Positions 13,705-39,540 of a stretch of DNA of 40,267 nt are shown here, piece after piece (within the stretch, counting starts at the first letter, position 1; each line of letters begins with the position of its first letter). Made by a program: the position numbers and the translations under genes. The notes under the pieces were generated by a model. The model saw only the letters and a list, made by a program, of their open reading frames with translations, was not told the origin of the DNA and ran no database searches. Origin of the DNA: Acidobacteriota bacterium (GTDB lineage Bacteria; Acidobacteriota; UBA6911; RPQK01; JADFOI01); assembly GCA_036445815.1 (NCBI GenBank), contig JAZFRU010000270.1, positions 1 through 40,267 on the forward strand, read 5' to 3'.

Positions 13705-13965
13705 AATTCAACCGCCAACTCTAACCCTCATCACGCATCCCTGCTCTCCTGCAGCGCACTCACCGTTAATCTGAACGGAACGAACCATCATTCGTCCTGC
13801 CCGGGTTGCATTCGGCCGCTCTCCCCAGCCTAGCATACAACATAGGGCGCCTCTCCTCGTGCGTCTTACCCGAGGTACGGCCTGGCGCACATCCAGGATT
13901 GCTACAGGAAATGCTGGTCTCTCCCCGTCTGGAGTCCGGTCGAAGATTCAAGGGGACAGTTGGAT

Positions 13966-15482: not shown

Positions 15483-15713
15483 CTAGTGAACGGTTTGTTC
15501 ACTCTGGCAACGGTTGATCAGAGCCTGCATATGATCCTTGAGAGCCAATTTTTTCTTCTTGAGAACGGTTTCCTCAACCTGTTCTTCGTGACTGAGATAC
15601 GATTTCTCCTGCAATTCTTTGAGGTCTGATTCATAGCCCTGGTGCTGATCGACCAGCTGACGAAATTGCTGGTCGTTCTCGACCAGGTATGCCTTGGCGT
15701 CGAGCTCTTTCAT
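15483..15713 (-). CDS. DUF465 (YdcH-like) family small protein
   Basis: 76 aa and coiled-coil-like. ...FRQLVDQHQGYESDLKEL...LKKKKLALKDHM matches the remembered DUF465 pattern. GGGAGG lies upstream of the ATG. Confidence 0.6.
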   Translation of the reverse strand: MKELDAKAYLVENDQQFRQLVDQHQGYESDLKELQEKSYLSHEEQVEETVLKKKKLALKDHMQALINRCQSEQTVH

Positions 15714-15873
15714 ATCTCCACTGTCCTCCCTGTCGATTTTGATTGTGAGTGAAAGTTATGGATGGGTGGCGCAATGAGCATCCTAATAGGAGCAAATTTA
15801 GCACATTCAACAGCCCCGATCAAGGTCACTTTTTTACCCCTTTTTACCCATTTCTGTTGCCGGAAGGCAGGGA

Positions 15874-16263
15874 GCGACCTCGCTCCGCTCGGTCGCGTTC
15901 CAGGTTCCACGTTCCACGTTCTACGGAAGAAGAGAAGAGCCGCTCAAGCCTGTCTTTCTCTCACCAGGTCGTCGCGAAGCGGTGCCGCCTTCATCTGAGC
16001 GAAGCGAAGAAAGGACCGGCCTGACAAGGCGCATGAGAGGAGGCCCCCGGAAGCGTACTGTACGGTACGCTGAGGAGGCGAACGAATGCAACACAGTCAG
16101 GCCGAATCATGGCGCCGATGCAGTAGAGCGGGTGTGAGATAGGCAGGCTAAAGAGCGGCTTTCTGAACTCGCGTACTGACGCCCTTCCGCAGTCCTGACC
16201 CACGTGAAACGTTAAACGTGAAACTTGAAACGCGCTGGTCGAAGACCAGCGCCCGGTCAGGGG
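15874..16263. repeat. Composite heptamer-array element, copy A (with a nested 207-nt module)
   Basis: The parts, in order: hairpin GCGACC-N11-GGTCGC (15874-15896); heptamers GTTCCAG GTTCCAC GTTCCAC GTTCTAC (15897-15924); split hairpin arms AGCCGCTC (15938-15945) and GAGCGGCT (16153-16160) separated by 207 nt; inverted heptamers GTGAAAC GTTAAAC GTGAAAC TTGAAAC (16204-16231); palindrome GCGCTGGTC-GAA-GACCAGCGC (16232-16252); and CCGGTCAGGGG (16253-16263), ending 3 nt before the ddl stop. Confidence 0.85.
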
Positions 16264-16266
16264 TTC

Positions 16267-17343
16267 TCATCGATCGACTGAGAAACGGCTTCGCCTCTGG
16301 TGTCTTTCCAGTCCCAGTTGGATCAAGGTGTCCAGTAGATCCGAGTACTGGAGCCCGGATGCTTCCCACAGCTTGGGATACATGCTGAACTCGGTAAATC
16401 CGGGTATGGTGTTGGGTTCGCTGATCCAGAACTGACCGGTCCCACGGTCCATCAGAAAGTCGATGCGTGCCATCCCCTCCAACTGTAACGCTCTGAAAGT
16501 CCTCACAGCCAGGTCCTGTACCTGCTCCATCTCCTCCTGGCTGAGAGGAGCTGGAATGAGCAACTGGCTTGCCTCATTCAGATACTTGGCCTCATAGGAA
16601 TAAAACTCCCCGGAAGGGATGATTTCACCTGCTACGGACACCCTTGGCTCACTGTTCCCGAGGACAGAGACTTCAATCTCACGCGCATCGATCCCCTGCT
16701 CGACAACCAGTTGATCATCGTAGCGAAAAGCGGTGTCGATGTGTTCGAGCAGTTCCTTGTCACTGGCACTCTTGTTGACACCAATTGACGAACCCAGATT
16801 GGCTGGTTTAACAAAGATCGGATAAGACAACGCCTCGGCAACACGCTGCAAGCAATCCTCCTGATCGTTGTTCCACTCCTGTCGAATGAGTGAGAGAAAA
16901 GACAGAACCGGCAACTCATCCTGCTGCAAAAGTTTTTTGCTGTAGAGTTTGTTCATGCCAACGGCCGAACCCCAGACTCCTGCCCCCACGTAGGGAATAT
17001 TCAGAACCTCGAGGGCCCCCTGAACGGTGCCGTCCTCTCCGAAAGGGCCGTGCAGCACGGGAAACACCACGTCGGCGACAGGCGTCAAGGAAGTCAAGGT
17101 CGATACCCAGTGTTTGCCTTCCGGAAAACTAATCTCCCGGGAGACTTCCAGATTGAGTTCCTGTCGGGTCGTTTCTGGAGCATACAACGCCCCGTCTTTT
17201 CGAATCCCGAGAGCGGAAACCTGATATTTCGCTCGATCCAGATGGCGTAACACGGCTGCGGCTGACTGAAAGGAAACCTCATGCTCGGCCGATTTTCCTC
17301 CGCAAAGGAGCACCAGATGCTTTCGGACAACGCTATCGTTCAC
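16267..17343 (-). CDS. ddl: D-alanine--D-alanine ligase
   Basis: 358 aa. The N-terminus LVLLCGGKSAEHEVS and the ATP-grasp layout fit Ddl. The GTG start overlaps the arginase stop (GTGA). Confidence 0.88.
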   Translation of the reverse strand: MNDSVVRKHLVLLCGGKSAEHEVSFQSAAAVLRHLDRAKYQVSALGIRKDGALYAPETTRQELNLEVSREISFPEGKHWVSTLTSLTPVADVVFPVLHGPFGEDGTVQGALEVLNIPYVGAGVWGSAVGMNKLYSKKLLQQDELPVLSFLSLIRQEWNNDQEDCLQRVAEALSYPIFVKPANLGSSIGVNKSASDKELLEHIDTAFRYDDQLVVEQGIDAREIEVSVLGNSEPRVSVAGEIIPSGEFYSYEAKYLNEASQLLIPAPLSQEEMEQVQDLAVRTFRALQLEGMARIDFLMDRGTGQFWISEPNTIPGFTEFSMYPKLWEASGLQYSDLLDTLIQLGLERHQRRSRFSVDR

Positions 17344-18272
17344 AATATCTCCTTTCCCAGAGCGGAACAGATGAGTTCTACCGCCAGTGAACCGGTGGCA
17401 TTCTCGGTATCCAGGACAGGATTGACTTCTACGCAGTCCAGGGCCAGCAGTTTGCCGCTGTCGGCCAAGATCTCCATGGCCAGATGACTTTCCCGATAAG
17501 TGATGCCGCCGCGCACAGGAGTGCCCACTCCGGGTGCCACCTGAGGATCCACGACATCCAGATCAAGGCTGCAGTGAAAGCCTTCGGTCCCATCACAGGC
17601 TCGTTCCAATGCTTCCTCCATGACGGATGTCATCCCTCTCATGTCCACTTCCTTCATGGTGATCACTCTCAACCCGGCCTTTTCGATATTGATCTTTTCT
17701 CGAAGGTCAATGCTGCGAGCCCCAATGACCACGGTGTTTTCAGAATTCACTTTGGGAGAAAAATCGGCGATGTCACGCAGTTCCCTGGGGCCCAGGCCCA
17801 TCAAAGCGGCCAGCGGCATGCCATGAACATTCCCCGACGGACTGGTTTCCGGAACGTTCATATCTGCATGGGCATCGACCCAGATCAGGCCGATTTTCTT
17901 GTTTTGATTTCTGAAATAAGCAGAAGTTCCTGCAATACTTCCAGCCGCCAGAGAATGGTCTCCCCCCAGGGTTAGTGGAAACTTTTCCTGCTCCAACGTC
18001 TCCGCCACGAGATTCGATAAAGTCCTGCAGATACGGGCGATCTCATTCAGGAAGACTTGTTTTTGTTCTCCCCGGTCGGCGGCTTCCGGGATCATGACCT
18101 CGACGTTGCCCCCATCCTCCACCCCGGCGTTCATTCTCACCAATGCGCCGTGGATTCCACCGATCCGTATGGCGGAAGGCCCCATGTCCACACCCCGGCG
18201 GCCGGCTCCCAAATCCATGGGTACACCGATAATCCGAACGGCTTTTCCAGTACCGCGGTTAGGCGCCCGCAT
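17340..18272 (-). CDS. rocF: Arginase (ureohydrolase family)
   Basis: 310 aa. IIGVPMDLGAGRRGVDMGPSAIR, GGDHS, DAHADMN and SLDLDVVDP are the Mn-binding ureohydrolase motifs. The N-terminal motif resembles arginase more than agmatinase. Confidence 0.8.
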   Translation of the reverse strand: MRAPNRGTGKAVRIIGVPMDLGAGRRGVDMGPSAIRIGGIHGALVRMNAGVEDGGNVEVMIPEAADRGEQKQVFLNEIARICRTLSNLVAETLEQEKFPLTLGGDHSLAAGSIAGTSAYFRNQNKKIGLIWVDAHADMNVPETSPSGNVHGMPLAALMGLGPRELRDIADFSPKVNSENTVVIGARSIDLREKINIEKAGLRVITMKEVDMRGMTSVMEEALERACDGTEGFHCSLDLDVVDPQVAPGVGTPVRGGITYRESHLAMEILADSGKLLALDCVEVNPVLDTENATGSLAVELICSALGKEIL

Positions 18273-18464
18273 TTCTCACATCTTCTCGTCACGAAGCGGC
18301 GCCGCTTTCATCTGAGCGAAGCGAAGAAAGGGCCGGCCTGACATGGCGCGTAACCCACAAGCGGGTCGCGCAACACAGTCGGGACGGATCATGGCGCCGA
18401 TGCGGTAGAAGGGGTTTGGGACATGCGGGCCAGGCATTGGGCTCTTTTCAACGGGGTTTCAGGG
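18273..18464. repeat. Stand-alone copy (B) of the module that is nested in copy A; it fills the whole rpsT-arginase spacer
   Basis: By hand alignment, two blocks are near-identical to copy A. The first is TCGTCRCGAAGCGGYGCCGCYTTCATCTGAGCGAAGCGAAGAAAGGRCCGGCCTGACA. The second is CAACACAGTCRGGMCGRATCATGGCGCCGATGCRGTAGA. A variable hairpin of different length separates them. Confidence 0.8.
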
Positions 18465-22805: not shown

Positions 22806-22873
22806 CGGTCAGTTCGGAACCTGCCCGCGTTCCAGGTTCCAGGTTCCAAGTTCCACGTTTCCTTCGGTCAGTT
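22806..22873. repeat. Minimal heptamer-array element, copy F, flanked by a 9-bp direct repeat
   Basis: CGGTCAGTT (22806-22814) is followed by CGGAAC, an 8-nt loop, the heptamers GTTCCAG GTTCCAG GTTCCAA GTTCCAC GTTTCCT (22829-22863), one T, and CGGTCAGTT again (22865-22873). The dcd stop codon lies inside the right repeat. Confidence 0.8.
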
Positions 22874-24831: not shown

Positions 24832-25259
24832 AGTTATCTCCACCCCTTAGGGTCCGGTACTCCCAGGTAGAACAGTCGGACATCGTTCGAGACTACTTCG
24901 GCCCCCTGGGAGCTGAAGAAACTCCTCGTTGTCCTCACTGTGGAGAACTTCTTCACTTTGACACCCGCCAGGTTGCCGGCAGTCAGTTCCAGATGAAGGT
25001 GCAATGTTCAGAGTGCCCCGCGGTTTTTCGCTGGGAGCAGACCGAACCGGAACAGCCCTGGAAACCCCTCTACCTCAAATACTTCGTTGAGGGTTATCAG
25101 GGGAACGATAGAATTCGCTGTCCCCTTGATGACTGCTACATCAGCTACACGGAATTCAATGATGGCGTGGTTGAGTTTCGCTGTCCCTTTTGCAACCGAC
25201 GAGGCAGGGCAACCGTATCGTGTAGTCGTCCGGGCCTCGCTCCGCTCGGCCGCGTTTAA
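24828..25259 (+). CDS. Cys-rich hypothetical protein with several zinc-ribbon knuckles
   Basis: The start is set at GTG 24828, which overlaps the M50 stop (GTGA). The protein is 143 aa. The Cys pairs are CPHCG, CSECP, CPLDDC and CPFC. Its last about 8 codons and its stop codon lie inside repeat copy C. Confidence 0.5.
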   Translation: MKLSPPLRVRYSQVEQSDIVRDYFGPLGAEETPRCPHCGELLHFDTRQVAGSQFQMKVQCSECPAVFRWEQTEPEQPWKPLYLKYFVEGYQGNDRIRCPLDDCYISYTEFNDGVVEFRCPFCNRRGRATVSCSRPGLAPLGRV

Positions 25260-25487
25260 CGTTTCAGGTTTAACGTTTCACGAAACTAGAGAAGAGCCGC
25301 TCTATGAGCGGCTTTCCAGATTCGGCGCCCTGAGGCGCCTCCCACACTCAGGACACTTCTCGACCAAACCATCCGGGTGATTTGGGTTTTGGGACACTCT
25401 GGCCCGTGCGCCCCCACCCTTTTTTTCGTGGAACGTGGAACCTGGAACGTGGAACGCGCGGGTCGCAGACCAGCGCTCGGTCAGGGG
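25231..25487. repeat. Composite heptamer-array element, copy C (archetype)
   Basis: The parts, in order: GGCC-N11-GGCC (25233-25251); GTTTAAC GTTTCAG GTTTAAC GTTTCAC (25254-25281); hairpin AGCCGCTC-TAT-GAGCGGCT (25295-25313); a core with stem CCTGAG/CTCAGG, GGGTTTTGGGACA (25384-25396) and a T7 run (25420-25426); GTGGAAC GTGGAAC CTGGAAC GTGGAAC (25428-25455); palindrome GCGCGGGTC-GCA-GACCAGCGC (25456-25476); and TCGGTCAGGGG (25477-25487). Confidence 0.9.
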
Positions 25488-26479
25488 ACCCGCACTCTGC
25501 CCACGGTATTCTCGTTGGTTCCAAACCAAATCTCTCGGGAAGGCTGATGAAACACCATGTGGCGAACCGTTCCACCACCGCTTCCGATCTCGGTGATGCT
25601 GAAGAACTTCTCGGTTTTGGGATCGAACCCGACAAAGCGGTTGGGTTGAGGAAGGGTCTCAACAAACCAGAGACGATCCTTGTCATCCACGGTCATGGCA
25701 TAAGGTCGCGACTGCCCCTTGGCCGGATTCTCCCACTCGGTGACCTGGCCCGTGGCCGCATCTAAACGCCCCAGATAACCTCGAGCGTAATCGACGTACC
25801 AGATCATGCCATCGGAAGTGAGTGCTAACCGTCGAGGCCGGGCCTCCTGGTTGGGAAGCGGGTACTCGGTCAACTCCATGGTGTTCGGATCAACCGTGGC
25901 GATTTTGTTGGTTCCAAACAGGCAAATCCAGGGCCGGTTGTCCGAATCGACTACAATGCCGTACGGCCTGGCCCTGGGCGTGGGCACGCTGACCAGTCGA
26001 ATATCGCCTGTGTCGATATCGAAATGACCGACGAAATTACCGCGTTGAACGGTGAACCAGATGTCTCCATCGTGGTCAAACGTCAGAGTGTGAGGGTCTC
26101 CGGCATCCGGATTCGGCATCATGAACTTGGTGATCTCACCCGTGCCGGCATCCAGTCTTCCGATGTGAGATGCCCGGTTGCCTGCATACCAAATGGACCC
26201 GTCTTCTCCGACAATCACGTTGTGAGGTCCGGTTCCGGGATCCAGATCATAGCGCTTGAACTCCCGAACCTTGGGGTCAAAGTAACCCACATAGTGACCA
26301 GCCTGCCCCACAAACCAGATCTGATCCTGAATTCTCAGATAGGGATCGCGCGGCCGGGTCTTGCCCCAGGGAACTTCCCACTCGTTAATCTGTACCTCGA
26401 CATTCTGGGCCACGAGTTGGACAGGCCATACCCAGAGCATCAACACGAGAAGAGCTGATTTTTTCCAGTCAATCATCAT
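25481..26479 (-). CDS. Secreted beta-propeller protein, virginiamycin B (streptogramin) lyase-like
   Basis: Repeats of the form G.GP.....DG.IW(F/Y) recur about 7 times, as in COG4257/Vgb-like propellers. An N-terminal signal peptide is present. The start is set at the first ATG (MMIDWKK...). A TTG at 26494 is the longest option. Confidence 0.6.
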   Translation of the reverse strand: MMIDWKKSALLVLMLWVWPVQLVAQNVEVQINEWEVPWGKTRPRDPYLRIQDQIWFVGQAGHYVGYFDPKVREFKRYDLDPGTGPHNVIVGEDGSIWYAGNRASHIGRLDAGTGEITKFMMPNPDAGDPHTLTFDHDGDIWFTVQRGNFVGHFDIDTGDIRLVSVPTPRARPYGIVVDSDNRPWICLFGTNKIATVDPNTMELTEYPLPNQEARPRRLALTSDGMIWYVDYARGYLGRLDAATGQVTEWENPAKGQSRPYAMTVDDKDRLWFVETLPQPNRFVGFDPKTEKFFSITEIGSGGGTVRHMVFHQPSREIWFGTNENTVGRVRVP

Positions 26480-31010: not shown

Positions 31011-31215
31011 GCGGGGGAGCGCTGGTCGCAGACCAGCGCGTTCCACGTTCCAGGTTCCACGTTCCAAGTGGGTCCGGAGTGTTGGAGACGCCTCCCACAA
31101 TCCGGACACGATCACAGCCAACCCATCCAAATTAACTGGGTTTTGAGACAGCCTGGGCCCTGCGCCCCTACCCGTTTTCTCGTGGAACGTGGAACCTGGA
31201 ACGCGGTTGAACGCC
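31011..31215. repeat. Composite heptamer-array element, copy D
   Basis: The parts, in order: palindrome GCGCTGGTC-GCA-GACCAGCGC (31019-31039), 9 nt after the NamZ stop; GTTCCAC GTTCCAG GTTCCAC GTTCCAA (31040-31067); a core with stem GTCCGGA/TCCGGAC (31072-78/31101-07), GGGTTTTGAGACA and GCGCCCCTACCCGTTTTCT; then GTGGAAC GTGGAAC CTGGAAC (31182-31202). Confidence 0.88.
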
Positions 31216-38161: not shown

Positions 38162-38373
38162 CCGGATTGTGGGAGAGGAAGTCAGCTGGTCAGCGCTTCG
38201 ACCCTTCGGGCCTCGCGCGTTTCGCGTTTCAGGTTTAACGTTTCACGAAAAGCAAGAAAAGCCACTCACACAACGGCTCTCCGGAATCGGCAAGGGACTT
38301 CATTCTTCCGTTCGTGAAACCTGAAACATTAAACGTTAAACGCACTGGTCGAAGGCCAGCGCTCGGTCAGGGG
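38162..38373. repeat. Composite heptamer-array element, copy E (short form) plus an inverted core fragment
   Basis: CCGGATTGTGGGAG (38162-38175) is the exact reverse complement of 31092-31105 in copy D. The remaining parts are: GTTTCGC GTTTCAG GTTTAAC GTTTCAC (38219-38246); a 67-nt spacer; GTGAAAC CTGAAAC ATTAAAC GTTAAAC (38314-38341); near-palindrome GCACTGGTC-GAA-GGCCAGCGC (38342-38362); and TCGGTCAGGGG (38363-38373), directly abutting the DegT stop. Confidence 0.85.
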
Positions 38374-39540
38374 TCAGGGTAGTAACTTCAAGAGTTCCGT
38401 ACACACGTAGTCCACCTGCGCTTCAGTCATGTGCGGGAACATGGGAAGGGAAAGAATCGATTCTGCAGCAGTCTCCGCTTCGGGAAAATCCCCCTCTTGA
38501 TATCCCAGATAACGGTATCCTTCTTGAAGGTGAAGCGAAATCGGATAGTGCAGTCCGGTTTGTATTTCACGATCAGACAGGGCCTGGCTGATGCGCAGCC
38601 GATCGGGCACCCTCACCACAAAGACATGATAGACGTGCCTTCGCCCGGCCGGTTCGACGGGCAGGACAACACGATCATCCTGGAGCCTTTCCAGATACCA
38701 CCCGGCCGCCCTTCTCCGCCCCTCATTCCAGTCATCCAATCTGGGCAATTTGGCATTCAGAACCGCACACTGCAACGCATCCAGCCTGATGTTCCATCCG
38801 CGCGATGAGGTGTAAACATATTTTTCACTCTGGCCGTGGTCGCGCCACACCCGCATCTTGCGATCCTTTTCAGGATCATCGGTCACGACCGCTCCACCAT
38901 CCCCCATGGCTCCCAGGTTTTTACCGGGATAGAAGCTGAACGCACCGGCTTCCCCGAAGGTTCCGACCTGTTTCTCCTGACCGTTCATCGAGTAGAGAGC
39001 ACCATGAGCCTGAGCGGCATCCTCAATGACCTTCAAGCGAAACCGATCGGCCAGCGCCAGAATCGGCGTCAGTTCCACCGGCAGGCCATAAAGGTGAACG
39101 GGGAGCACGGCAGTAACCCGGCGGTTGGACTGTTTATTCACCAGCTGGCCGTCGGGCTGAACTTGGCACTTTTGTTCCAGGAACTCAGCAAGCCGACTGA
39201 CCGACAGGTTGTAGGTGTCCTTGTCGATATCGACGAAAACGGGGTGGGCTCCCACTGCAATGACGGCTTCAATGGTGGCGACAAAGGTATGGGGAACGGT
39301 GATAACCTCTTCATCCGGCCCCACGCCGGCCGCCATGAGGGCCAGTTTCAGAGCATCGGTACCACTGGCACAGGACACCGCAAAGCGAGCTCCGCAGTAA
39401 CTCGCAAAGTTCTCTTCAAATGTCTTGACATAGGGCCCCCCGATGAAACTGGACTGATCGATAATCTCGGCAATGAGAGTATCGACTTCCACCCGTACTT
39501 CCCGATGGAGGGCCCCGAGATCAGCAAAAGGTACCTTCAT
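38374..39540 (-). CDS. DegT/DnrJ/EryC1/StrS family PLP-dependent aminotransferase
   Basis: 388 aa. The N-terminus ...F.....E..FA.YCGA.FAV.C.SGT.AL.LAL and the overall length are typical of sugar aminotransferases. Confidence 0.85.
   Translation of the reverse strand: MKVPFADLGALHREVRVEVDTLIAEIIDQSSFIGGPYVKTFEENFASYCGARFAVSCASGTDALKLALMAAGVGPDEEVITVPHTFVATIEAVIAVGAHPVFVDIDKDTYNLSVSRLAEFLEQKCQVQPDGQLVNKQSNRRVTAVLPVHLYGLPVELTPILALADRFRLKVIEDAAQAHGALYSMNGQEKQVGTFGEAGAFSFYPGKNLGAMGDGGAVVTDDPEKDRKMRVWRDHGQSEKYVYTSSRGWNIRLDALQCAVLNAKLPRLDDWNEGRRRAAGWYLERLQDDRVVLPVEPAGRRHVYHVFVVRVPDRLRISQALSDREIQTGLHYPISLHLQEGYRYLGYQEGDFPEAETAAESILSLPMFPHMTEAQVDYVCTELLKLLP

What the first reader, a model, noticed from the sequence alone, without database searches (positions are those of the whole stretch)
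15874..16263. Copy A: one repeat module inserted precisely into the hairpin loop of another (nested elements)
In copy C the hairpin reads AGCCGCTC-TAT-GAGCGGCT. In copy A the same arms are present (15938-15945 and 16153-16160), but they are separated by 207 nt (15946-16152).

That 207-nt insert is homologous to the stand-alone module at 18273-18464. If the insert is removed, copy A becomes a short-form element with a spacer of about 72 nt, very like copy E (67 nt).

This suggests at least two independently moving units: a heptamer-armed carrier and a roughly 200-nt structured module. It also suggests the module targets hairpin loops, as IS200/IS605-type or REP-targeting elements do.
Basis: seen in the sequence. 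Interest (0 to 1): 0.65.

Follow-up and report, generated by a model that had tools for sequence, protein, structure and literature searches.

The report
Nested mobile repeat inside a hairpin
A ~200-base non-coding mobile repeat (a structured MITE-like element that is abundant in uncultured marine and sediment bacteria, probably Acidobacteriota) sits exactly in the tip of a small hairpin belonging to another intergenic repeat; the nesting is real, but it is an ordinary kind of event for bacterial repeat elements.

Summary
In copy A the arms AGCCGCTC (15938-15945) and GAGCGGCT (16153-16160) are separated by 207 nt. A profile of about 35 related copies matches that insert end to end. Copy C has the same arms around a TAT loop.

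The insert belongs to a high-copy family of foldback elements. These have a closing stem or inverted repeat of about 25 bp, six covarying helices, optional internal hairpins and YTAR end flanks.

The family moves independently:
- Stand-alone copies exist, including 18262-18435 in the window.
- That site is empty in three related genomes, which keep a single TTAG (or TCAG).
- It is filled in one other relative.

About 20 further loci carry the module in the same carrier hairpin, 16 in one orientation and 4 in the other. About 10 carriers keep an empty hairpin.

The hairpin is therefore a recurrent landing place. However, many nested copies probably spread as a composite.

The long inverted ends do not fit the IS200/IS605 analogy. 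They fit a MITE moved in trans, possibly by an IS5-type transposase, but no matching autonomous element was found.

There is no Rfam match. The sequence occurs in metatranscriptomes, but the transcribed strand is unknown.

Verdict: a new MITE-like family with nested insertion, of moderate interest.

The parts
15870..15896 (+). Carrier copy A, left outer GC-rich segment (GGGAGCGACCTCGCTCCGCTCGGTCGC)
   Evidence: Read directly. Homologous to the left end of copy C.
15897..15924 (+). Carrier copy A, left arm: four tandem heptamers (GTTCCAG, GTTCCAC, GTTCCAC, GTTCTAC)
   Evidence: 26 heptamer-pair matches in the window against about 1 expected.
15938..15945 (+). Left arm of the carrier's inner hairpin (AGCCGCTC)
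   Evidence: The same arm is present in copy C and in related carriers.
15946..16152 (+). Nested foldback module of the hairpin-embedded subfamily. A closing stem joins about 15947-15971 to about 16126-16151, and the inner helices covary.
   Evidence: Profile match to model positions 2-183, E 1.7e-51. Fold of -97.3 kcal/mol, z -6.1. Alignments A2 and A3.
15985..16009 (+). Optional 25-nt mini-hairpin insert inside the module (CCGCCTTCATCTGAGCGAAGCGAAG); a third nesting level
   Evidence: Present in only 9 of 35 aligned copies, doubled in L027. Present in reverse orientation at another position in L051.
16153..16160 (+). Right arm of the carrier's inner hairpin (GAGCGGCT)
16203..16233 (+). Carrier copy A, right arm: inverted heptamers of the GTTTCA/GTTTAA type
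16232..16263 (+). Carrier copy A, right outer hairpin GCGCTGGTCGAAGACCAGCGC plus the tail CCGGTCAGGGG, ending 3 nt before the ddl stop codon
   Evidence: Repeat family D6, four copies. ORF table.
18262..18435 (+). Stand-alone module between the rpsT stop and the start of the arginase-family gene, antisense to both genes
   Evidence: The orthologous site is empty in L081, L084 and L089 and filled in L085.
13724..13870 (-). Decayed third copy of the module between mgtE and pssA
   Evidence: nhmmer E 2.8e-6, model positions 54-180. L085 has a decayed copy at the orthologous place.
25230..25490 (+). Carrier copy C, with the empty hairpin AGCCGCTC-TAT-GAGCGGCT at 25295-25313
38190..38374 (+). Carrier copy E, short form with a degenerate hairpin AGCCACTCACACAACGGCT
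31017..31206 (+). Carrier copy D, which lacks the inner hairpin

Best explanation
Copy A is a composite of two non-coding repeat elements.

**The carrier.** This is an intergenic foldback repeat of about 180 nt. Its ends are four tandem heptamers in inverted orientation, and it contains a 7-8 bp hairpin (GCCGCTC-NNN-GAGCGGC).

**The insert.** This is a separate foldback element of 180-207 nt, MITE-like, sitting at the apex of that hairpin.
- *Shown:* it has a closing stem or terminal inverted repeat of about 25 bp (YTAG-CCCGNN-TTTCTCACACC ... GGTGTGAGAAA-NNCGGG-CTAR).
- *Shown:* it has an inner rod of covarying helices with optional hairpins.
- *Shown:* it exists in hundreds of copies per genome-equivalent in related uncultured marine and sediment bacteria.
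- *Shown:* it is present or absent at orthologous sites.

**Mechanism (inferred).**
- It is moved in trans by a transposase that recognises the inverted ends and inserts at YTAR-like tetranucleotides, duplicating them. IS5-family enzymes behave this way, and one with a CTAG duplication sits in a related genome.
- The top of the carrier hairpin (CTC-TAT-GAG, or CTC-ATA-GAG on the other strand) is one base away from such a target. It was hit at least twice, once in each orientation.
- Afterwards many carrier-plus-module composites multiplied as units.
- The conserved single-strand fold, somewhat better on the + strand, suggests that the transcript or a single-stranded DNA form is also under selection.
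For: **Anatomy and boundaries.**

**Family size.**
- About 50 real copies were found in one metagenome scan.
- Depth over the module is 400-600, against 3-6 over ddl, in a sediment metagenome.

**Structure.**
- With the designated structure, 90.5% of cells are paired, against 30-39% when partners are slid by 1-3 columns.
- 15 pairs change on both sides, and no shuffle out of 500 reaches the observed covariation score.
- RNAalifold predicts 54 pairs, 21 of them with compensatory changes, across three subfamilies.

**Mobility.**
- Empty site: cgcgaTTAGgcatgggg in L084 and L081 (TCAG in L089).
- Filled site: cgcgaTTAG[CCCGCA...GGCGGG]CTAGccatgggg in L085; also filled in the window.
- On the ddl tree the two filled genomes are not sisters.
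- A second junction lies directly after the conserved CTTAG of the Vgb-lyase stop codon.

**The hairpin as a site.**
- 23 of 38 distinct copies lie between GCCGCTC and (G)AGCGGC, in both orientations.
- Copies in the minority orientation are each closer to majority-orientation copies than to one another.
- About 10 empty hairpins have loops ATA, TAT, GCA, ACA or TTAT.

**Candidate enzyme type.** An IS5-like (DUF772) element with CTAG flanks and a GCCCG-containing inverted repeat lies in L084.

**Not an artefact.** L087 shares the nested junction.
Against: - No autonomous element with matching ends was found in any fetched locus. The L084 IS shares only GCCCG with the module ends.
- The flanking tetranucleotides of a given copy are identical in only 3 of about 13 stand-alone copies. 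That is no more than their consensus composition predicts, so the duplication rests mainly on two orthologous comparisons.
- The hairpin junctions (CTC-AAG...CTAAAG-AGCGG) cannot be derived from the empty CTC-TAT-GAG by a clean duplication.
- Orientation in the hairpin is skewed 16:4 and junctions are shared within each class. Both point to composite spread rather than repeated targeting.
- The interior is more conserved than the extreme ends, which is unusual for a passive MITE.
Confidence: 0.65

Rival explanations
1. Composite spread only. The module entered the hairpin once (or once plus one inversion between the hairpin arms). All other nested copies descend from that composite, which is itself the multiplying unit. 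The hairpin loop is not a preferred target.
For: - Orientation is 16:4.
- Junction sequences are shared within each class (CTAA-WA-AGCGGCC in one, CTAA-AG-AGCGG in the other).
- The hairpin-embedded copies carry their own subfamily signature (CCAGGTCG ... GAGCGGG ... TAGTCGGG).
- They also share the outer flanks CCGATTCCGGAG and CGCTACAAC.
Against: - The minority-orientation copies are not each other's closest relatives.
- They sit in different outer contexts: the window copy has AGAGAAG plus a heptamer arm on one side, while L031 and L041 have TTGTAGCG.
- A stand-alone copy with the embedded-type interior exists (L061).
- Gene conversion between copies could, however, blur this signal.
Confidence: 0.2
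2. The arms GCCGCTC/GAGCGGC are the outermost part of the module (an extended inverted repeat). The 'empty' hairpins, such as the one in copy C, are what remains after the interior is deleted.
For: - Internal deletion derivatives are common: L034, L044, L070 and L073, plus reads that skip 86-123 nt.
- A 22-nt element made only of the two ends exists in L084 (CTAG-CCCGTACTATGCATAATCCGGG-CTAA).
Against: - Fifteen stand-alone copies and the whole third subfamily end at YTAG-CCCG and lack these arms.
- The empty hairpins have 3-4 nt loops with no trace of the AAGCC...GGCTAA ends.
- The arms occur in carriers of genomes and loci that have no module nearby.
Confidence: 0.07
3. The module acts through its fold rather than as a passive MITE. 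Either it is a mobile gene for a structured RNA, or it is an element recognised and moved as folded single-stranded DNA (as integron attC sites or IS200/IS605 ends are). In that case hairpin tips would be natural targets.
For: - There are six covarying helices, including inner ones that the inverted-repeat logic does not explain.
- The inner loops GUCACGAAG / (A/C)UGCAGUAGAG are nearly invariant across subfamilies, while the closing stem is replaced entirely in the third subfamily.
- The + strand folds better in 33 of 38 copies (sum -3313 against -2939 kcal/mol).
- G.U exceeds A.C by 125 to 32 cells.
- GNRA-type loops are present.
- The sequence occurs in marine and sediment metatranscriptome assemblies at high word depth.
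Against: - There is no Rfam match even at E up to 10.
- Orientation relative to flanking ORFs is random (17/17/13/12), and no promoter-like site was found.
- Counted by columns, G.U against A.C is only 32 to 25.
- Contigs carry no strand information, and DNA carry-over in the RNA libraries cannot be excluded.
- Palindromic protein-binding sites would also covary symmetrically.
Confidence: 0.15

Closest known systems
Bacterial MITEs that form long foldback structures and are transcribed (bcr1 of the Bacillus cereus group, ERIC/IRU, Correia/NEMIS, RUP)
   Same: - Small, non-coding and high-copy, mostly in intergenic DNA.
- Inverted ends and short flanking repeats.
- Presence or absence varies between relatives.
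- For bcr1, the predicted RNA fold is kept by compensatory changes and the element is transcribed, as summarised in PMC3184786.
   Different: - A different sequence family in a different phylum.
- Modular interior with optional hairpins.
- Three subfamilies that swap the closing stem but keep the inner loops.
- One subfamily is almost confined to a hairpin of another repeat.
IS5-family insertion sequences and their MITEs (4-bp YTAR/CTAG target duplication)
   Same: - YTAG/CTAR tetranucleotides flank the module.
- A single TTAG stands at the empty site.
- An IS5-like DUF772 transposase element with CTAG flanks is present in a related genome.
   Different: - No IS with the module's ends was found.
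- The ends share only GCCCG with that IS.
- The duplication is not proven copy by copy.
Insertion sequences that target REP/BIME palindromes (IS1397 and ISKpn1 into REP units; IS621/IS110 family next to REPs)
   Same: A mobile element lands repeatedly in a short extragenic palindrome that belongs to a mosaic repeat. IS1397 and IS621 are cited in PMC3184786. That IS1397 lands in the REP loop is from my own knowledge.
   Different: Here the invader is itself a non-autonomous 200-nt element. Most of its relatives do not use palindromes, and no IS3- or IS110-type partner is linked to it.
IS200/IS605-derived palindrome-associated elements
   Same: Hairpins matter, there is a hint of strand asymmetry, and insertion lies next to a specific tetranucleotide.
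   Different: IS200/IS605 ends are not complementary to each other and make no duplication. In this module the two ends pair over more than 20 bp.

Membership tests
MITE (non-autonomous element with inverted ends) | Small size and no coding capacity | tested here: met
   - Length is 97-233 nt.
- Only chance ORFs overlap it.
- Conservation is uniform at all codon positions.
MITE (non-autonomous element with inverted ends) | Terminal inverted repeats | tested here: met
   The closing helix has 21 pairs with 93% of cells paired. It is kept in all three subfamilies with different sequence.
MITE (non-autonomous element with inverted ends) | Target-site duplication | tested here: inconclusive
   - A single TTAG at empty sites against TTAG...CTAG at the filled one.
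- A second junction lies at a conserved CTTAG.
- Flanks within a copy match exactly in only 3 of about 13 copies.
- In the window copy the duplication could instead be read as (T)AGGC.
MITE (non-autonomous element with inverted ends) | Many dispersed copies, with presence varying between relatives | tested here: met
MITE (non-autonomous element with inverted ends) | A cognate autonomous IS with the same ends | tested here: not met
   None in the window or in the fetched loci. Whole genomes could not be scanned.
IS200/IS605-derived element | Ends not inverted with respect to each other, each with its own subterminal hairpin | tested here: not met
   The 5' and 3' ends are complementary over more than 20 bp.
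IS200/IS605-derived element | No duplication; insertion 3' of a fixed tetra- or pentanucleotide | tested here: inconclusive
   YTAG precedes the element and is present at the empty site. A similar tetranucleotide also follows the element.
IS200/IS605-derived element | TnpA (Y1) or TnpB gene in the genome | not testable with these tools
   Only a 40-kb window and loci of 20 kb or less were available. The main unexplained ORFs scanned showed no such domains.
Described RNA family (Rfam 15) | Match to a curated covariance model | tested here: not met
   No match at gathering score. Only chance-level hits at E of about 1.7-1.8.
REP/BIME-type mosaic repeats (for the carrier) | Short extragenic palindromes combined in mosaics with other motifs, many copies | tested here: met
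   Five carriers in 40 kb with mixed arm types and optional inner motifs. The same motifs are recombined in related contigs.
REP/BIME-type mosaic repeats (for the carrier) | Associated RAYT (REP-associated tyrosine transposase) | not tested
   No genome-wide protein set was available.

The most novel reading that the evidence does not exclude
The module may be a mobile structured nucleic acid whose fold is the functional part. One possibility is a self-spreading gene for a rod-shaped RNA, with a conserved GAA/AGUA inner loop and exchangeable peripheral hairpins. The other is an element recognised and inserted as folded single-stranded DNA, which would explain a liking for hairpin tips. Small hairpins nested within it, in either orientation, would then be a third layer of the same process.
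Probability: 0.15. Interest if true: 0.7.

Novelty: new member of a known kind. Interest (0 to 1): 0.4.

Why it matters
The finding documents a previously undescribed, very abundant repeat family in uncultured marine and sediment bacteria, probably Acidobacteriota.

- The elements break assemblies. Contigs end inside them.
- They fill intergenic spacers beside housekeeping genes and are present in metatranscriptomes.
- The nesting gives a relative timing of insertion events.
- It also points to a possible palindrome preference of the unknown transposase.
- If the conserved fold proves to act as RNA or as single-stranded DNA, the family would be a good system for studying structure-dependent mobility.

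Tried and rejected
- **Genome-contig scan.** I scanned with the 20-mer CTGAGCGAAGCGAAGAAAGG. It found only unrelated repeats in Clostridia, Ignavibacteria, Marinobacter and other MAGs.
- **Rfam.** No match at gathering score or at E-value thresholds.
- **tRNA/tmRNA scan.** Nothing found.
- **Viral contigs.** Nothing found.
- **Look-up of the window's ddl protein by exact sequence.** Not on record.
- **Autonomous partner.** A search for YTAGCCCG...CGGGCTAR pairs 0.6-3.5 kb apart in all loci found none.
- **Promoter and terminator scans.** None found.
- **Reads skipping exactly 15946-16152 (an empty copy A) in four metagenome runs.** None found; only internal-deletion variants appeared.
- **Raw stranded RNA reads.** All RNA runs found are kept as contigs, so strand could not be determined.
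- **Literature searches.** No description of this family was found.
- **Assembly-artefact explanation.** Rejected because L087 shares the junction.
- **Protein-coding explanation.** Rejected because conservation shows no codon pattern.

Full report
**1. The observation**

Copy A (15874-16263) lies between the stop codon of ddl (16267-17343, minus strand) and a DUF465 gene (15483-15713, minus strand).

- The sequence reads ...GTTCTACGGAAGAAGAGAAG-AGCCGCTC-[15946-16152]-GAGCGGCT-TTCTGAACTCGCG....
- Copy C reads ...GAAACTAGAGAAG-AGCCGCTC-TAT-GAGCGGCT-TTCCAGATTCGGCG... This is the only short-loop instance in the window, with none expected by chance.
- With the 207 nt removed, copy A aligns over its full length with copies E and C.
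- The insert is homologous to 18262-18435.
- A profile of 35 related copies matches 15946-16151 over model positions 2-183 (E 1.7e-51). The insert boundaries are therefore module boundaries.
- An independent contig from a close relative (L087, ddl 90% identical) carries the same junction, so this is not an assembly artefact.

**2. Context**

- All neighbouring genes are housekeeping genes on the minus strand: holA, rpsT, an arginase-family gene, ddl, DUF465, psd, pssA, mgtE, recO, glyQS. No transposase was seen.
- The ddl homologues that carry organism names are all labelled Acidobacteriota (56-69% identity). The closer, unnamed relatives come from marine and sediment assemblies.
- The window holds five heptamer-armed carriers:
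  - A at 15874-16263
  - a solo arm at 22826-22860
  - C at 25230-25490
  - D at 31017-31206
  - E at 38190-38374
- These carriers use two arm types (GTTCCAN and GTTTMAN), which are mixed within A and C.

**3. The module family**

- *Abundance.* In sediment and marine metagenome runs, the module part of copy A has assembler depth of 400-600, against 3-6 over ddl.
- *Copies recovered.* One metagenome scan with a 22-mer from the conserved core returned 56 loci, about 50 of them real.
- *Shared fold.* The copies share the following elements:
  - a closing stem of about 25 bp
  - an inner loop GUCACGAAG / (A/C)UGCAGUAGAG
  - a short helix CGGCG/CGCCG
  - a helix GGCCGGCCUGAC/GUCAGGACGG
  - distal hairpins
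- *Support for the designated structure.*
  - 90.5% of cells are paired, against 30-39% when partners are slid.
  - 15 pairs change on both sides.
  - No shuffle out of 500 reaches the observed covariation score.
- *Third subfamily.* It replaces the closing stem (CCCGGATTATGCATAGG...) and changes the short helix to CAACGAAA/TTTCGTTG, GCCGCA/TGCGGC or GCGACAAAA/TTTTGTCGC, while keeping the inner loops.
  - RNAalifold on 21 copies of the three subfamilies predicts 54 pairs, 21 of them with compensatory changes.
- *Strand.* The + strand folds better in 33 of 38 copies. G.U exceeds A.C by 125 to 32 cells, but only by 32 to 25 columns. The strand asymmetry is suggestive, not proven.
- *Known families.* There is no Rfam match.
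- *Orientation.* Orientation relative to flanking ORFs is random (crude ORF-based calls).
- *Transcription.* The sequence occurs in marine, sediment and vent metatranscriptome assemblies, in one of them at very high word depth. These are unstranded contigs, and DNA carry-over is possible.

**4. Independent mobility**

- The site between rpsT and the arginase-family gene reads cgcgaTTAGgcatgggg in L084 and L081 (TCAG in L089). In L085 it reads cgcgaTTAG[CCCGCA...GGCGGG]CTAGccatgggg. It is also filled in the window.
- On a ddl tree the two filled genomes are not sisters. Their modules also differ in optional hairpins. This implies either two insertions at the same tetranucleotide or several precise losses.
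- A third-subfamily copy in L085 starts directly after the CTTAG that contains the conserved stop codon of the Vgb-lyase gene. L081 has that CTTAG with no element.
- Stand-alone copies are typically flanked CTAG-CCCG...CGGG-CTAR.
- This pattern fits a 4-bp YTAR duplication of the IS5 type. L084 carries an IS5-like (DUF772) element flanked by CTAG.
- However, flanks within a copy match exactly in only 3 of about 13 cases, and no IS with the module's ends was found. The transposase type is an inference.

**5. The hairpin as a landing place**

- Of 38 distinct copies, 23 lie between GCCGCTC and (G)AGCGGC. Counting loci once and correcting the window copy by eye gives two classes:
  - About 16 loci have the module's + strand running from the CCGATTCCGGAG side to the CGCTACAAC side.
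  - 4 have the reverse orientation: the window copy, L031/L033, L041 and partial L042.
- The reverse-class copies are each closer to forward-class or stand-alone copies than to one another. They also sit in different outer contexts.
- About ten carriers in the related contigs keep an empty hairpin, with loops ATA, TAT, GCA, ACA or TTAT.
- Exceptions exist in both directions:
  - L061 is a stand-alone copy with the embedded-type interior.
  - L070 is a stand-alone-type copy inside a carrier but next to the heptamer arm.
- The hairpin has therefore been used at least twice. The 16:4 skew and the class-specific junctions indicate that many nested copies spread as composites.
- The junction CTC-AAG[...]CTAAAG-AGCGG cannot be derived cleanly from CTC-TAT-GAG. 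A variant target such as GCCGCT-CTAA-AGAGCGGC would fit, but none was observed.

**6. Comparison with known systems**

- The closest described things are structured, transcribed MITEs such as bcr1, which has 5-bp direct repeats, compensatory changes and transcription (PMC3184786). ERIC and Correia elements are similar (my own knowledge).
- Targeting of extragenic palindromes is known for IS1397 and for IS621 (PMC3184786).
- The IS200/IS605 analogy fails because the two ends pair with each other.

**7. Verdict**

- The nested arrangement is real, and the two-unit reading is right.
- The hairpin preference is plausible but rests on few independent events.
- The mechanism is most likely that of a MITE moved in trans.
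- This is a new family of a known kind.
- Its unusually conserved and modular fold leaves a minority possibility that the fold itself, as RNA or as single-stranded DNA, is functional.

Noticed in passing
window 13724-13870 (- strand); L085 12712-12778: A decayed third module copy lies between mgtE and pssA. A decayed copy sits at the orthologous place in L085, so the family is old in this clade.
   Followed up: partly
window 15985-16009 and 18302-18326; L027:10020-10252; L051:2896-3105: An optional 25-nt mini-hairpin (CCGCCTTCATCTGAGCGAAGCGAAG, containing GCGAAGC) is present in both window modules but absent from most copies. It is doubled in L027 and occurs in reverse orientation at another position in L051 and in RNA-run contigs. 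This is a third nesting level.
   Followed up: partly
L001-L024: The 20-mer CTGAGCGAAGCGAAGAAAGG from that mini-hairpin also occurs in unrelated multi-copy repeats of Clostridia (10 contigs of one rabbit-gut MAG), Ignavibacteria and Marinobacter MAGs. Whether this is chance or a shared small hairpin motif is unknown.
   Followed up: no
L031:3774-3959 versus L033:976-1178: Two 98.9% identical copies of the same locus, from different samples, differ by a 17-nt hairpin (CCCGCAAGCGGG with a GCAA loop). Internal hairpins are therefore gained or lost quickly.
   Followed up: no
window 15897-15924, 16203-16233, 25254-25280, 25429-25455, 31040-31066, 31183-31202, 38219-38245, 38315-38334; L085, L088 and L089 ddl-DUF465 spacers: Carrier arms are four tandem heptamers of two types (GTTCCAN and GTTTMAN), mixed within copies A and C. 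Relatives have carriers with other heptamers (CACAGAG, CCACAGA) at the same spacer, and L081 has none. What binds or makes these arms is unexplained.
   Followed up: partly
L084 11078-14284: In this relative the ddl-DUF465 spacer holds three things: an IS5-like (DUF772) element with CTAG flanks, an IS110-family transposase, and a 22-nt element made only of two module-type ends (CTAG-CCCGTACTATGCATAATCCGGG-CTAA).
   Followed up: partly
L087 about 1480-1490 versus window 16144-16156: The 3' junction of the nested module reads CAGGCTACTAAAGAGCGG in the 90% relative and CAGGCTAAAGAGCGG in the window, a 3-nt difference exactly at the junction.
   Followed up: no
L077 about 3885; L089 ddl-DUF465 spacer: Some carriers read CCGGAGAGCC-ATTACAAC or CCGGAAGGCC-ACTACAAC with no inner hairpin at all. 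The hairpin itself therefore behaves as an insertion or deletion within the carrier.
   Followed up: no
A3 columns 28-36 and 154-161 (window about 15972-15980 and about 16119-16127): In the inner loop, GAA opposite AGUA is flanked by C-G and G-C pairs. From memory this resembles a loop E / sarcin-ricin motif. AGUA is replaced by AAUA or ACAG in some third-subfamily copies. This was not tested.
   Followed up: no
L049:747-928: One stand-alone copy sits between two tRNA genes, judged from the flanking sequence by eye.
   Followed up: no
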